Shown here piece after piece: positions 25,961-59,160 of a DNA stretch of 64,000 nucleotides (position 1 is the first letter of the stretch; each line of letters begins with the position of its first letter). Source of the DNA: Octopus vulgaris (Eukaryota); assembly GCA_951406725.2 (NCBI GenBank), contig OX597817.1, positions 18,104,001 through 18,168,000 of the forward strand, given 5' to 3'. The translations under genes and the position numbers were made by a program. The notes under the pieces are model-generated. The model was not told the DNA's origin. It did not search any database and worked only from the letters and a program-made list of their open reading frames with translations.

Positions 25961-26968
25961 TGATTTAATTATGAACATAGAAAGAACTTACACATTAATT
26001 CCTATTTTTGTAAGCAGTTGTATCTGTAAAAAAATTTATTTGCAGAGAGCAGAAATTGAAAGAAGATATATGAAATGGACGTGTGTGTGTGTATGTGTGT
26101 GTGTGTGTTTGTGTGTGTGTGTGTGTGTGTGTGTGCGTGTAAGTACGTGCGTGCTTGCGCATGTGTATGTGTGAGAGAAACAGGTTGAGAAAGAGAGATA
26201 GAGTAATTGAAGGTGTGTGTCGTGATGATTGACATATTTTAAGGTACACACACATACATAGAAAATGTGAGGTCATCGTATAAAATTTTTACGATAGCTG
26301 ATTTATGGAAAAGATTATGTTAAATTTTTGAAATGCAAATATGTGAATGAAATTAAGTTCAGACCTCTACATGGTAGCTAGACCTGGTAGAAATAGCAGT
26401 CAAATCTCCCTCAAAACACCCTACTGTCTTAATCCGACAATTCTGCCTATTATGTAGTTTGAATGAGAAATTGTAACTAAAGGCTACTAAAGAGGTGAAA
26501 GAAGAGAAACAGCATAGCGAAAGTTTTGGCTGACTGACATCCTGTACTCCCCTTGTTGCTAGCGAAATGGTCTATGCCGGCTGTGTGAGAAACTGGTCGT
26601 TTTAATGGCGGAACAAAAATGGAAATTCCATTAGAAAAAGTTTTAATCGATTTTCTTGGTAACTATGGAGGCTAGGAAAAAATACAAAACGCATTCCAAT
26701 CTATGCACCCGTCTCCACATGTGTGCCATTTTTTCACGCGAATCCATCCGTCTGGCTGTGAACCTCAAGACAAGAAAGAATACAACGATCGCCCATGTCC
26801 AATTTATATTACAGATAAAACATACATTTATATATATGTATGTATTGCATATATATGTATGCGCGCACACACACACATATATATATATTTATGTATGTAT
26901 ATATATATATATATATATATATATATATATATATATATATAAAGAAAAAAGCAACAAGAATGGATTAG

Positions 26969-27062
26969 TTTTTCTGTACAATTGTTTCATACGAAGAACT
27001 GCTTTATTAAAAGCTGCAAATATTGCAGCAAATACAAGTGTCCCGTACTCATCAGCCAAAAC
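26969..27062 (-). ncRNA. Minimal type-I hammerhead ribozyme motif with canonical core, inside a ~260-bp element (26941-27202) flanked by (TA)n
   Basis: Minus strand: GTTTTGG-CTGATGA-GTACG...CGTAT-GAAAC-AATT-GTA-CAGAAAAAC; stem II GTACG/CGTAT; palindromic stem III ACAATTGT; stem I imperfect. Confidence 0.7.
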
Positions 27063-27389
27063 ACATATGAGTTTTTTCTTGTTTATAATCACCCCACATT
27101 ATTTTATGGTTAATACCATATAGATTTCTGGTGCATCTAAGTTAAGTACCGCATTCATGTGAATTCATTGGAACTCACTTGAAACTTAATTGCTTTTACT
27201 GAATATATATATATATATATATATATATATATATATATATATATATATATATATATTATGAGAGGTTTTGGTATCCAGAAGACTCCAAAGGCAGGTAAGG
27301 CTATATTAGTGCTATGGAAGGACCGCTGTTAAACTCCCTCTTCAATAATAGTATGAGTGATGAGACTAAGGCGGGTCGTGTGAGAGCGT

Positions 27390-27698
27390 GTATATGTTAA
27401 ATAAAATATGATAACAAGGCCAGGGCAATGTGATATTTCTAGGATATTTATAAAGAGAAAGGTGATCTTACAGCTGTCTCAGGGAAATAAATGATATCTT
27501 GTCATCAGATACGAGTTAAAAGAGCTTCAATAGAAGGAGAGTTCAAATAGAGTTCATCTCTCCCTTTATATTTTCTCTATCTATCCCTTTCCAAAATAAC
27601 TTCTTATATAAAGAACTCTACTAATTTCTTCTATTGAAACTTACTTAACTTGTCTCTGATGTAAGACCACCTTTCTCTTTATAAATATCCTAGAAATA
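27390..27698. mobile_element. Penelope-like inverted pseudo-LTR pair (right arm continues at 28565-28620) with a degenerate hammerhead at 27465-27512 (minus strand)
   Basis: 27436-27472 is the reverse complement of 27660-27697; minus strand GTAT-CTGATGA-N21-GAGAC-AGCT-GTA-AGAT. Confidence 0.65.
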
Positions 27699-27790
27699 AT
27701 ACAGTTCCATATTTAAGAGATGAGGAATTACGTACATTATTTACATTATTTATAATTGACGGATATTTGTCCCCATCTTGTTTATTGTTA

Positions 27791-55639: not shown

Positions 55640-55853
55640 GAGAGGGGCTTTCTCCGTCCGTGTTGCGGATCCGTGGAACAAGCTGCCAGCCAAGATGGTG
55701 AAGATGCCGACGACCACTTTGTTCAAAGTCTCCCTTGACCTCAAGTGGCCTGAACTCTTTACATGAACACCACTCTGTACATAACTCCATGTCCCCCTAC
55801 ATAGCCTTGCTTTTTGCTTTTTGAGCCAAAAAAATTAACTAACTAACTAACTA
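55640..55853 (+). mobile_element. CR1-like LINE 3' end with (TAAC)n tail
   Basis: RGAFSVRVADPWNKLPAKMV...FKVSLD, then a short UTR and TAACTAACTAAC. Confidence 0.75.
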
Positions 55854-58180
55854 TGACGCCGAAGAGGAAATCATAATACTACAAATGAGGAGTGAGGCCA
55901 TTAATTGGAAAGGCCAAACCCTGGAAATTGTCGTATAGGCCCCAAATGAGGTTCTGGAATCAAGGCCAGATCGAATCTTTATAGGGGAGGGACTAAGCGC
56001 CCGTGTTTCGGTGGAAGGTCGAAGACCGAGGTGTGCGAGAAGGGACACGCAAGGTCAGACTGCAAAAGAGTAAAAAAGACAAAAAAGGTAGATGTCCCTC
56101 CCCTAAAAGGAAAAGGTATAGAAACCAACAAGGAGGAGGGGAAAAACAGAAAAAACCGGAGAAAGAGGTAAACAAAGAGGAGGAGAATAAATCACAGGAA
56201 TCAAAAGATGGTGATAAAAGAAGTCAAAAAGATAAAACGGAAGAGGGGAAAAAGCCCCGACCCTTGACTCCCCTCCCCTAACAAAGAAAGCTATAACCAC
56301 ACACGCAACACACAGGAAAAAATTCCCCACTTCGCTCCCAAATCGAAACCCCCGACCAACCTCACCCCAATCAAAAGAAAGATACATAAAGTACAATGAA
56401 AAAAACCAAGTAATGGCTAGAATTTTGGTGTACACCCGCAGGTGTTCATATATAAGCGTGTACAAGACATGCCAGCCCATATTAGGTTGGCAAAAGTTAT
56501 TGACGATGAACTGTACGAATCATGTAAAAAAAGATACCCAAATGATTTGTTGGACATGACTAAAGAAGTGGTCTAGAAAATACTAGAGGCTGCACTTCTG
56601 AGAGAAAAAGAGGGAGAAACTGCCAAATTAGCCTCTCCCCAAAATGTAAGAACGTAAGTTTTTTTCTCTGTTTTAAATTCTTTCGTGCAGATTAAAGTAG
56701 GGTGTATACATGCACGTGACTTGGGGTCGAGATGGAAACAAATTTGTCTCCTGAACAATCTCAGGTCACTAGATTTGGATACATGTGTGGTAACTGAGTC
56801 CAAGGTGAATGATCCACATACGTTCTCGCCTTTTCTAGGTAGCTATGAGAAATATATTTCTCATAGTCGCCGGGGAGGTGCGAGCGTGGTGGTTTTGTTC
56901 AGAGAAAGCTTGGACGTACAGGTAAGTACAGGATTTCTGGACCCAGAAGGTAGGCTTGTTGCCCTTGATGTGACATATGTAAGCAGTCTTTCAGGTTGGT
57001 AGCTGTCTACGCTCCGAAAGAGTGTAGGCAAGCTGGTTTTTTTCTTGACTTGGAGAATTTCTTAGTAACGTCCAATTCTCTAGTTTTAATAGGAGACTTT
57101 AACACTATCTTCAATGCACGAGTGGATAATGTTGGCTCAGCAAATAGAAGGGGAAATCCTGGTCTCAAAAGGCTACTAACAAACTATAACTTAGTAGACT
57201 GTTACAGGGCCGATCACAGCTGAGGAGATCAAGGAGGTGCTGGCTGAATGCGCTGGGGACAAGTCGCCGGGGCTGGATGGTCTGCCCTATGAATTTTATC
57301 GAAGTATGCCGGACTTGTTCGGACACGTGCTGGCCTGCGTCTATACGAATTGGCAGCAGAATGGGAGGATTACCAGCTCTGTTAGTCGGAGAGTGGTGAC
57401 GTTGATCAGAAAAGACCCGAACAAGGGGGATCATATTAGCAATTTCAGGCCCATAACTCTACTTAACGTAGAGATAAAGATTTTAGCCAAAGTGCTAGCT
57501 AAAAGGTTGAAGCTTGTCGCGGAGAAGCTTGTAGGGAAAGCGCAGACATGCGCAATCCCAGGCAGGTCAATCCAGGACAACCTCCATCTCTTACGCTACA
57601 CGTTTGACAGGGTTGGGAAATTATTCGGTAAAGGCGGGTCATTGGTCCATTTAGACCAAAGTAAAGTTTTTGATAGGGTAGACCACCAGTGTCCGAGGCT
57701 GGATCACTGTTTACAGCGGCATTAAATCGACAGTCCAGGTAAACAGTTACCTGTCGGTTCCGTTGGAGATCAAGCGATCAGTTCGTCAAGGGTGTTCTCT
57801 ATCTCCGCTTCTGTATGTGCTGGCTCTTGAGCCTTTACTGCGGAGGCTGGAGAATTTAGGAGGCATCCCTAATGAAATCGGATGTGGTAAGTCTGTTTCT
57901 GCATATGCGGATGACATCACCATCACCATGTCCAGTGAGGCTCAGCTACATTGTGTAGAGGATGCAATCAAGGGATTCGAGGCTGCGGCAGGGGCAAAAG
58001 TTAACAAGGACAAGTCCATTGGCTTACGGCTCGGCACCTGGAACGGTAAGTCGATAACGTCCAGTGTCGTGGAATACTGGAAGGATGGTCCTGTTCAGTT
58101 GCTTGGAGTTTGGACTCCCAGACGAAGAATTGGAGCGAGGTGGCAGACAGGCTGGAGGCTCCAGTCCGGACTTGGTCTGG
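55854..58180 (+). mobile_element. Decayed Tx1-clade LINE: ORF1 remnant, APE endonuclease (56685-57215) and RT (57215-58180), with a large internal deletion
   Basis: VVTESK, VAVYAP, LIGDFN (EN); KSPGLDGLPYEFY, NFRPITLLN, DQSKVFDRVDH, VRQGCSLSPLLY, AYADDI (RT). Confidence 0.88.
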
Positions 58181-58423
58181 ATTTTGTTTATCTTTTTCCT
58201 ATCTTCCCATTCTGTCTTGGGCTTTTGTGTTTTTATTGTTATGTGTTTTGTTGCTTTTTATGTTGCATGTGTTTTCTACTTTAGGTGCATGGGTATTAGT
58301 ATTATTTAGGTTTTTCTAGGTGTGAACTTGATTTTGCCTTATACCTGGCCCTAGCTAGCTTTATATTGTACTCTACTACGTTCTTAACAGAATATTCCAT
58401 AACTTTATGTAAATACAAATATT

Positions 58424-59160
58424 AATTTGTCATCCGTACTTCTGCAGTGAGGGTGCTAAAATTAATGCATATTTATGCAGCAAATAGTACCAAAAACACA
58501 CGTGCTACATACTTATACATTATAATATTCAAACCCACCGCGCCAGCAAACAATAATAATTTTTTATTTCATTCCCTTTGAAATTGCTCTTATTCGTGGT
58601 TTGGACTTTAACTGCCCTTTCTAGCATGTAAGATGTCCTGTGAAAGGTCACATCTTTTGTATAAATACATAAATTGTTTACACACTCTTATATGTGAAAA
58701 TATGCTGTCTATTGACTTTATTACGCATGCTAGCCACCGGTATGAAAACTTTTCTAAATTTTCTACCCTTATTTTTACAGTAACATTTTCGTAGTTTCAA
58801 GCCTTTTTGGTACGTAGTTTTAATTTTTTATTATTATTTGCTGCCGAATGTAACTGCGCTGGCGCGGTGGATTTGAAAATTATAATGTATAAGTATGTAG
58901 CACGCGTTTTTTCGGTGCTATTTGCTGCATAAATATGCATTAATGTTAGCGCCCTTACTGAAGAAGTAAGGATGGCAAATTTTCATATTGATACAGAAAC
59001 TCGAGTTTGAGTGTAACTACAAAAATATTTTTTATATTTTCATTCCCTTTGAAATTGGTCTTATTCGTGGTTTTGGGCTTTAACTGCCCTTTCTAGCATG
59101 TAAGGTGTCCTATCAAAGTCACCTCTTTCGTGTAGAAATACGAAAATTGTTTATACATGT
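58424..59160 (+). mobile_element. Penelope-like pseudo-LTR arrangement (inverted plus direct repeats)
   Basis: 58424-58547 is inverted relative to 58858-58982; 58561-58685 is a direct repeat of 59030-59157. Confidence 0.65.
58954..59011 (+). ncRNA. Minimal hammerhead-like motif with palindromic stem III
   Basis: CTTA-CTGAAGA-A-GTA...TAC-A-GAAAC-TCGA-GT-T-TGAG; stem I CTTA/TGAG; ACTCGAGT palindrome. Confidence 0.55.

What the first reader, a model, noticed from the sequence alone, without database searches (positions are those of the whole stretch)
26941..59160. Five unrelated short repeats share the same minimal-hammerhead layout
Motifs at 26969-27062 (-), 27465-27512 (-), 27791-27834 (-), 53428-53462 (+) and 58954-59011 (+) share no obvious primary similarity outside the core. 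All read [stem I]-YYGANGA-(A)-[stem II]-GARAC-x-RT-H-[stem I']. Stem III is a different palindrome in four of them (ACAATTGT, ACAGCTGT, ACGT, ACTCGAGT); the fifth is ACAT, presumably mutated ACGT. Three have an extra A after the GANGA box and two have a GUU cleavage triplet. Inference: many ribozyme-bearing PLE-derived families, with family-specific palindromes possibly acting as dimerisation codes. If intronic, active copies could cleave host pre-mRNA. Weaker remnants lie at 4457-4495 (-) and 59714-59739 (+).
Basis: partly seen in the sequence, partly recalled or inferred. Interest (0 to 1): 0.7.

Follow-up and report, generated by a model that had tools for sequence, protein, structure and literature searches.

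The report
Hammerheads in Penelope-like retroelement ends
The five motifs are hammerhead-ribozyme-shaped sequences in the end pieces of five high-copy jumping-gene families, a pairing already known for Penelope-like elements; their palindromes likely let two copies in one RNA pair up and cut (untested), are shared between families rather than unique to each, and all five copies here differ from their family consensus in a core or paired position.

Summary
All five motifs are at the stated places and exceed chance (5 descriptor hits against 0.3-0.4 in shuffles). Each belongs to a dispersed repeat family with a fixed 3' end and, in F1-F3 often, an inverted 5'-truncated partner, as in Penelope-like elements (PLEs). 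F1 and F3 are traced to PLE-type coding frames and F2 weakly. F5 is a roughly 470-nt retrozyme-like unit, and F4 is unlinked. This is the published minimal PLE hammerhead (Cervera and de la Pena 2014), including the extra base and the palindrome.

All five family consensuses are palindromic, and ACAT is decayed ACGT. The 'family code' fails as stated: F3 and F4 share ACGT, and 5 of 8 palindromes recur in two clusters. The window is ordinary for this genome (54 hits per Mb, about 10^5 genome-wide). All five copies differ from consensus at core or paired positions, and F2 carries A14G. No host exon was found, so pre-mRNA cleavage is unsupported.

Side result: F3's terminal repeat begins with a tRNA-like head. 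The scan already noted both this and the multi-family pattern on other DNA of this genome.

The parts
26937..27075 (-). F1: 5'-truncated 3' end of a coding PLE-like family, ending in (TA)n
   Evidence: 98% to another copy; 2,643 first-look candidates; 12 of 30 long copies have a same-strand endonuclease-type frame end about 1.1 kb upstream
26977..27055 (-). F1 hammerhead motif: 60-nt stem II, stem III ACAATTGT, GUA triplet; core intact, one stem I pair changed from G-U to G-A
27389..27559 (-). F2 element 3' end (older family)
27469..27508 (-). F2 hammerhead motif, stem III ACAGCTGT; this copy has A14G, a broken stem II and a stem I mismatch, so it is predicted dead
   Evidence: consensus comparison; A14G abolishes cleavage in PMC4889925
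27578..27698 (+). Inverted partner of F2, first piece; interrupted by the F3 insertion
27700..27886 (-). F3 body: 3' part of the terminal repeat, with a 55-codon open frame from an ATG upstream of the hammerhead
27795..27830 (-). F3 hammerhead motif, stem III ACGT, GUU triplet, extra A; this copy has C3U against the family's C3
28020..28255 (-). 3' end of a LINE inserted in F3's (AAT)n tract (Dong/R4-type label recalled, from no call)
28431..28481 (-). Positions 24-74 of F3's 75-nt tRNA-like head (box B side; the box A part is missing in this copy)
28480..28568 (+). Inverted 5'-truncated F3 partner lacking the 30-nt tail and the first catalytic box
   Evidence: body positions 67-157
28565..28620 (+). 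Inverted partner of F2, second piece
53415..53567 (+). F4 element: short repeat bounded by (TA)n at both ends; no coding partner found
53432..53458 (+). F4 hammerhead motif, family core CCGACGA (U4C); this copy has ACAT for ACGT and a stem II mismatch
58421..58547 (-). Inverted 5' partner of F5
58550..59177 (+). F5: about 1.3 head-to-tail copies of a roughly 470-nt unit, retrozyme-like
58958..59007 (+). F5 hammerhead motif, stem III ACTCGAGT; weak stem II in the family; this copy has a 9-nt deletion in stem II and GUU for the commoner GUC
59714..59797 (+). Sixth, long-armed hammerhead remnant (ACAACTGT here, ACAGCTGT in a relative), within a repeat spanning about 59682-59855
   Evidence: one relative only (L344)

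Best explanation
The motifs are minimal type I hammerhead sequences in the 3' terminal repeats of five dispersed repeat families, two traced to Penelope-like coding frames and the others likely moved by the same kind of enzyme, left here as truncated, decaying insertions. In a source element the terminal repeat occurs twice in one transcript. The two identical motifs would swap strands so that the self-complementary 15.1-16.1 segment forms a 4-8 bp helix III, and cut after N17 (inferred from published work). The PLE reverse transcriptase would start copying about 40-170 nt downstream, at either of two sites about 35 nt apart, and usually stop early. That would explain why most copies keep only the ribozyme-bearing end, often with an inverted partner. 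Palindromy was likely selected in the source elements, because identical partners can only pair if the segment is self-complementary. It needs no between-family code.
For: Shown: dispersed families with 485-5,034 first-look candidates each. Shared 3' ends and, in F1, F2, F3 and F5, variable 5' ends; motif-bearing copies on both strands in 8, 12, 18, 1 and 2 of 30 loci for F1-F5 (a few loci overlap). F3 3' ends are bimodal, 76 at 180-188 and 49 at 135-169 of 125, matching the PLE 'tail' (PMC11167929, PMC8557442). F3's head follows an RT-HTH-GIY-YIG-type frame in L157 and in 3 of 3 fetched loci (BLASTP 5e-16 to a Pfam RVT_1 plus GIY-YIG protein; Atlas 0.97). F1 joins an endonuclease-type frame end in 12 of 30 long copies. 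Two young coding elements carry the same layout after their stop codon, AGTACT in 27 of 29 and ACACGTGT in 28 of 29 oriented loci. 27 of 54 hits in an unselected 1 Mb are palindromic against 0.3 in shuffles. F5 relatives swap ACTCGAGT for ACCTAGGT or ACCATGGT. Core positions show fewer changes than base-matched flanks in 4 of 5 families.
Against: No cleavage was tested. F4 has no coding partner in my sample, and its 5' ends pile up at a (TA)n boundary. F2's link rests on distant relatives (L359, L346, L351, L369). The 899-aa element used to link F1 has no Pfam hit and only a weak collinear match to the other PLE protein (E 0.002). G10.1-C11.1 is met in only 2 of 5 consensuses, and F5's stem II is weak. 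No intact F3 frame was seen (longest 362 aa in 150 rows). In the anole PLE, cleavage is dispensable in vitro and no RNA ends map to the cut site (PMC11167929).
Confidence: 0.85

Rival explanations
1. The palindromes are a compatibility code. Selection diversified them so that motifs pair and cut only with their own family or class, including in trans between separate RNAs.
For: Predicted full-register duplexes: matched 8-mers -6.4 to -11.1 kcal/mol, mismatched -3.0 to +2.5. At least 8 palindromes occur in clusters, and more in singletons.
Against: F3 and F4 share ACGT. 5 of 8 palindromes occur in two clusters, and ACAGCTGT in several unrelated contexts. Only 21 palindromes of form AC-[0, 2 or 4 nt]-GT exist, fewer than the families likely present. 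Published dimers act in cis (PMC4209133, PMC6155905). The ACGT duplex is only -1.7 kcal/mol.
Confidence: 0.1
2. The motif is kept mainly as a folded signal for PLE protein binding or reverse-transcription start, with cleavage incidental.
For: In the anole PLE, catalytic mutants insert normally, cleavage needs the protein, and no RNA-seq ends map to the cut (PMC11167929, parts 1-2). F4's family core is U4C, a variant that lowers activity in vitro (PMC3088659 passage). F5's stem II is weak.
Against: Both catalytic boxes, N17 not G and palindromy persist across unrelated families. In F5, partial-tandem copies reach back to but not past the preceding unit's predicted cut (L129 begins 3 nt before it; six loci).
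Confidence: 0.2
3. Some genomic copies are active or co-opted and cut host pre-mRNA.
For: About 50 motifs per Mb. 4 of 14 unselected F3 copies and 4 of 14 F4 copies keep core and palindrome. Family sequence is present in contigs of putative RNA runs. Domesticated intronic hammerheads exist in amniotes (PMC6155905 passage).
Against: No host exon was detected among 117 frames scanned. All five window copies are damaged. They lie on both strands and have no complete same-family partner in cis. In unselected F3 copies the core decays like the flanks (8/167 against 140/2290).
Confidence: 0.07
4. The motifs are chance matches to a loose descriptor.
For: The bare core is barely enriched (14 against 7.6-9.1), and one of five strict hits in the window (32985) is a probable chance match in a transposase remnant.
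Against: 54 against 6.6 hits and 27 against 0.3 palindromic hits per Mb. Family consensuses fit the motif better than the window copies. The same layout follows two young coding elements.
Confidence: 0.02

Closest known systems
Minimal hammerheads (min-HHR) of metazoan Penelope-like elements, Cervera and de la Pena 2014, PMC4209133 (parts 1-2 of 4 read; supplements not read)
   Same: Type I layout, short stem I, extra base between 9 and 10.1, palindromic 15.2-16.2 and loop 3, many consensus families per genome, mostly single dispersed motifs from truncated PLEs, inverted pairs 100-700 bp apart, dimer model.
   Different: Estimated about 10^5 motifs here against about 2,000-9,000 reported per genome (different descriptors). 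Stem II reaches 60-100 nt in some families. U4C is the consensus in F4. G10.1-C11.1 is not universal.
PAc (Poseidon of Anolis), PMC11167929 (parts 1-2 of 4 read)
   Same: As in F3: hammerhead near the start of the frame, two reverse-transcription start sites giving a 30-40-nt tail, AT-rich targets.
   Different: F3's ATG lies upstream of the catalytic box, and its terminal repeat begins with a tRNA-like head and an (AAT)n tract; no such head is described in the parts read.
Metazoan non-LTR retrozymes (PMC7761336 passages; Li et al. 2026, 10.64898/2026.07.22.740005, parts 1-3 of 5)
   Same: F5: non-coding head-to-tail unit of about 470 nt with a type I hammerhead, proposed to be PLE-derived and PLE-mobilised.
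   Different: No F5 locus with two consecutive complete motifs among 30. Circular RNA not tested.
Small dimer-cleaving PLE hammerheads, Lunse, Weinberg and Breaker 2017 (not held; title seen in reference lists and summarised in PMC6765202 passages)
   Same: Palindromic, very short stem III; cleavage as dimers.
   Different: I could not read it; it may already list these palindromes or test mismatched pairs.
Hydra-clade PLEs, Craig et al. 2021, PMC8557442 (passages)
   Same: C-terminal endonuclease, (TA)n insertion and hammerheads, like F1 and the 899-aa element.
   Different: Clade membership not tested; the label comes from earlier scan notes.

Membership tests
PLE minimal hammerhead (min-HHR) | Core boxes CUGANGA and GAAA..UH flanked by stems I and II | tested here: met
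   Consensuses of F1, F2, F3 and F5 have the full core; F4 has U4C. Window copies F2 (A14G) and F3 (C3U) deviate.
PLE minimal hammerhead (min-HHR) | Palindromic 15.2-16.2 / loop 3 | tested here: met
   5 of 5 consensuses; 27 of 54 unselected hits against 0.3
PLE minimal hammerhead (min-HHR) | Extra nucleotide between 9 and 10.1 and G10.1-C11.1 pair | tested here: inconclusive
   Both met in F3 and F4. F5 has the extra A but G opposite A. F1 closes with G-U, and F2 with U-U before three G-C pairs.
PLE minimal hammerhead (min-HHR) | Located in the pseudo-LTR of a PLE | tested here: met
   F3 and F1. Weak for F2; not shown for F4 or F5.
PLE minimal hammerhead (min-HHR) | Self-cleavage as dimer, little as monomer | not testable with these tools
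   Needs in vitro assay
EN+ Penelope-like element | Single frame with RT and C-terminal GIY-YIG | tested here: met
   F3 source: decayed frames, BLASTP 5e-16 to a Pfam RVT_1 plus GIY-YIG protein; Atlas clusters HTH_animal 95%, GIY-YIG 15-38%. Pfam itself gave no relevant hit. F1: through the 899-aa element, weakly assigned.
EN+ Penelope-like element | 5' truncation, fixed 3' end, inverted 5'-truncated partner | tested here: met
   (8, 12, 18, 1, 2 of 30 loci with both strands); window copies of F2, F3 and F5 have inverted partners
EN+ Penelope-like element | Optional 30-40-bp tail at one end | tested here: met
   F3: 76 ends at 180-188 and 49 at 135-169. Not examined for the other four.
Non-LTR retrozyme (F5) | Non-coding head-to-tail unit with type I hammerhead | tested here: met
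   Unit about 469 nt; partial tandems in L121, L123, L129, L130, L135, L144
Non-LTR retrozyme (F5) | Two consecutive units with complete hammerheads | tested here: not met
   0 of 30 loci with two same-strand motifs; top-40 sample only
Non-LTR retrozyme (F5) | Circular RNA intermediate | not testable with these tools
   No raw RNA reads were offered
tRNA-derived SINE (F3) | Non-autonomous, no coding frame of its own | tested here: not met
   The head directly follows the family's own coding frame in L157, L401, L402 and L403
tRNA-derived SINE (F3) | tRNA-derived head with Pol III boxes at the 5' end | tested here: inconclusive
   53 of 77 heads start at positions 1-9. Both box patterns (recalled consensus) are intact in 4 of 30 loci. 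ARAGORN of 6 heads only at a relaxed threshold, one on the opposite strand. No Rfam tRNA hit.
Canonical type I hammerhead (Rfam models) | Reaches the gathering score of an Rfam hammerhead family | tested here: not met
   0 matches in 7 loci

The most novel reading that the evidence does not exclude
The palindromes sort about 10^5 dispersed motifs into a small number of dimerisation classes that act in trans. F3's tRNA-headed terminal repeat yields abundant short Pol III RNAs that pair with any transcript carrying an intact ACGT-class motif (F3, F4) and cut it, making a retroelement-encoded, palindrome-addressed RNA cleavage network. The Pol III-driven coding Penelope alone is about even odds; the trans network is the unlikely part.
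Probability: 0.07. Interest if true: 0.75.

Novelty: new member of a known kind. Interest (0 to 1): 0.3.

Why it matters
As a class this is known: minimal, palindromic, dimer-type hammerheads mark PLE ends. What the genome adds is scale and a natural variant series. It holds roughly 10^5 motifs in many families, with 4-, 6- and 8-nt palindromes, related families differing by compensatory changes, and two very young coding elements. That makes the open question of what PLE hammerheads do, and whether mismatched partners can cleave, easy to test. The motif is also a usable tag for short unclassified repeats. The tRNA-like head on F3's terminal repeat is the least expected feature. I did not find it in the listings of searches, but the scan has noted it repeatedly elsewhere in this genome.

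Tried and rejected
Rfam did not help: window rows were microsatellite matches to miRNA models, and there was no hammerhead or tRNA hit at F3 or in 7 family loci.

My own first reading of F3 as a stand-alone tRNA SINE was dropped after the coding frame was found upstream of the head. Searching for an intact frame through the F3 N-terminal peptide found none among 150 of 38,194 candidates (longest 236 aa), and 0 of 76 full-length 3' ends shared downstream element sequence. The two young coding elements (775 and 899 aa) are not the direct sources of F1-F5.

Host gene: 117 of 344 candidate frames were scanned (112 longest plausible plus 5 chosen). Only transposon domains and one sub-threshold SANTA hit came up, so intron context and strand bias could not be tested.

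RNA: no RNA holder listed. Four runs of guessed RNA gave contigs only, which cannot show ends, strand or this locus.

Neutral-decay test: not decisive. Unselected F3 copies show no core protection, but pooled copies show 33-68% fewer core changes than base-matched flanks in F1-F4. Several source elements would give that too.

Monomer folding is weak (z from -1.9 to +1.3). The 4457-4495 remnant is not supported. PDB and Pfam scans of the F3 frame pieces were uninformative. Lunse 2017 and Arkhipova 2017 are not held.

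
Full report
Setting. The window is repeat-rich animal DNA at G000:C4:18104001-18168000 in a 2.8-Gb assembly. I call the five motifs F1 (26977-27055, -), F2 (27469-27508, -), F3 (27795-27830, -), F4 (53432-53458, +) and F5 (58958-59007, +).

Observation. All five read as described. A descriptor requiring both catalytic boxes and 3 of 4 pairs in stems I and II finds 5 sites in the window against 0.32-0.42 in dinucleotide shuffles; 0 of 60 shuffles reached 5 at each of three block sizes. 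Four of the five hits are the named motifs. The fifth, at 32985, lies in a transposase remnant, and the F2 copy fails stem II. In 100 evenly spaced 10-kb regions the same rule gives 54 hits, 27 of them palindromic, against 6.6 and 0.3 in 20 shuffles; palindromy was not part of the rule. That extrapolates to about 1.3 x 10^5 motifs, and 5 in 64 kb is unremarkable (expected 3.5, P 0.27). Shuffles do not model chance matches inside other repeats, so the estimate is rough; palindromic hits alone give about 7.5 x 10^4. Of the two remnants, 59714 is a longer motif (59714-59797) with one relative carrying ACAGCTGT, and 4457-4495 has no support.

Families. Each motif is one copy of a dispersed family, with 2,643, 916, 5,034, 1,200 and 485 first-look candidates for F1-F5; 30 loci were taken from each. 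Consensus stem III is ACAATTGT, ACAGCTGT, ACGT, ACGT and ACTCGAGT. F4's ACAT is decay of ACGT: 22 of 29 other copies have ACGT, although the query favoured ACAT. The copies share a 3' end, and in F1, F2, F3 and F5 differ in 5' extent. Motif-bearing copies lie on both strands in 8, 12, 18, 1 and 2 of 30 loci (a few loci cover the same site twice). In the window, F2, F3 and F5 have inverted partners, and F3 is nested in F2's partner.

Links to coding elements. F1: walking upstream, 12 of 30 long copies carry a same-strand match to the C-terminal endonuclease region of an 899-aa element about 1.1 kb before the motif. That element has RT-like and GIY-YIG-like motifs by eye, no Pfam hit, and a weak collinear match to a Pfam-confirmed PLE protein. 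F2: a similar decayed frame appears only in distant relatives.

F3 is a 75-nt tRNA-like head, an (AAT)n tract and a 187-nt body. It is present in 18 of 100 unselected regions. I first read it as a SINE. Earlier scan notes said it is the terminal repeat of a coding Penelope, and I tested that. L157 from the unselected sample, and 3 of 3 further loci picked for long frames, show an RT-HTH-GIY-YIG-type frame ending just before the head. BLASTP to the confirmed PLE protein gives 5e-16, and the Atlas returns HTH_animal and GIY-YIG clusters at 0.96-0.97; Pfam gave no relevant hit. An ATG upstream of the motif opens 55 codons to the body's end in most copies. 53 of 77 heads start at positions 1-9, and 3' ends split 76 at 180-188 against 49 at 135-169, the PLE tail signature.

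F5 is a unit of about 469 nt in partial tandems; none of six reaches past the preceding predicted cut by more than 3 nt. F4 is a short repeat bounded by (TA)n with no partner found. Independently, two very young coding elements carry the same layout 495 and 595 nt after their stop, with AGTACT in 27 of 29 and ACACGTGT in 28 of 29 oriented loci.

Is the palindrome a code? It is conserved within families and changes between related ones while staying self-complementary: F5's ACTCGAGT against ACCTAGGT and ACCATGGT in homologous copies. That fits selection in source elements. It is not family-specific. F3 and F4 share ACGT, and in clusters of two or more copies 5 of 8 palindromes occur twice (205 singletons and the non-palindromic clusters, several of them mis-parsed or chance, are left out of this count). 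Two identical motifs swapping strands can form helix III only if the segment is palindromic, so no further cause is needed. Discrimination is physically possible for 8-mers (matched -6.4 to -11.1, mismatched -3.0 to +2.5 kcal/mol), so a looser class effect is not excluded.

Are these copies active? Probably not. F2 has A14G, which abolishes cleavage in PMC4889925 (passages), plus broken stems. F3 has C3U. F4 has lost its palindrome and a stem II pair. F5 has a deletion in an already weak stem II. F1 keeps its core but has a stem I mismatch. None has a complete same-family partner in cis. Among unselected copies spanning the motif, 4 of 14 F3 and 4 of 14 F4 keep core and palindrome, and F3's core decays like its flanks. 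Against pure neutrality, pooled copies show fewer core changes than base-matched flanks in F1-F4 (4 against 12.4, 21 against 44, 36 against 53.8, 24 against 43.6) but not F5 (20 against 24.5); several source elements under selection would produce this. No host exon was found in 117 of 344 candidate frames scanned, so the intronic scenario is untested.

Mechanism. Shown: motif, families, insertion anatomy, and coding links for F1 and F3. Inferred: dimer cleavage in tandem transcripts, internal start of reverse transcription, early termination, and Pol III use of F3's head.

Literature. PMC4209133 (parts 1-2 of 4) describes the same minimal motif, the extra base, the palindrome, many families per genome, dispersed single copies, inverted pairs and weak dimer cleavage, with about 2,000-9,000 motifs per genome. 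PMC6765202, PMC7761336 and PMC6155905 (passages) repeat the dimer model. PMC11167929 (parts 1-2 of 4) explains the tail and finds cleavage protein-assisted and dispensable in vitro. PMC8557442 (passages) gives PLE anatomy. 10.64898/2026.07.22.740005 (parts 1-3 of 5) derives retrozymes from PLE ends. PMC3088659 (passages) notes that U4C lowers activity. An Octopus vulgaris repeat annotation lists 31 recently active Penelope-like families and does not use the words ribozyme or hammerhead (PMC13282606 passages); the giant squid paper counts 235 Rfam hammerheads (PMC6962438 passage). Searches showed no survey of octopus PLE hammerheads, searches no tRNA-headed pseudo-LTR, and search 100 no mismatch test, judged from listings. 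Lunse 2017 and Arkhipova 2017 were not held and no supplements were read; they may bear on these negatives.

Verdict. A real and correctly recognised feature of a known kind. The PLE origin is supported, the family-specific code is not as stated, and host cleavage is unsupported. The scan has reported the same multi-family pattern and the tRNA-headed repeat on other DNA of this genome. Interest 0.3.

Noticed in passing
window 27389-28620: Nested insertions: F3 sits inside the inverted partner of F2, and a LINE 3' end sits inside F3's (AAT)n tract. This explains why two of the motifs lie so close.
   Followed up: yes
window 28431-28481; L157:1000-1556, L401-L403: F3's terminal repeat starts with a 75-nt tRNA-like head just after the stop codon of a PLE frame; 18 of 100 unselected 10-kb regions carry F3 (about 50,000 sites).
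   Followed up: yes
L251-L280: Very young coding PLE (775 aa, Pfam RVT_1 and GIY-YIG, 4,271-bp tandem unit, over 100 near-identical copies listed).
   Followed up: partly
L281-L310: Second young element, 899-aa frame, 55-nt stem II, palindrome ACACGTGT; no Pfam hit.
   Followed up: partly
L129:1155-1729: F5 partial tandem whose 5' end begins 3 nt before the predicted cut of the preceding unit; five other partial tandems start downstream of it and none upstream.
   Followed up: partly
window 32632-33060: Tc1-type transposase remnant (Pfam DDE_3) that gives a chance hammerhead descriptor hit at 32985.
   Followed up: yes
window 56600-58290: Decayed LINE with RVT_1 hits just upstream of F5; related 3' pieces with zf-RVT at 44600-46300.
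   Followed up: no
window 22983-23252 (-): Sub-threshold Pfam SANTA hit (E 0.002); possible host exon or chance.
   Followed up: no
window 4440-4516 (-): The unconfirmed 'remnant' lies in a short open frame reading like a coiled coil; a possible exon or transposon piece.
   Followed up: no
L200 and 10 other loci: Common repeat that passes the relaxed descriptor with a 93-nt stem II and a non-palindromic stem III; chance or another hammerhead type.
   Followed up: no
L332 cluster (5 copies): Family with an odd-length near-palindrome (ACTCTGAGT or ACTCAGAGT) in stem III.
   Followed up: no
window 41116-41426: Eight tandem copies of a 38-nt unit at 96% identity.
   Followed up: no
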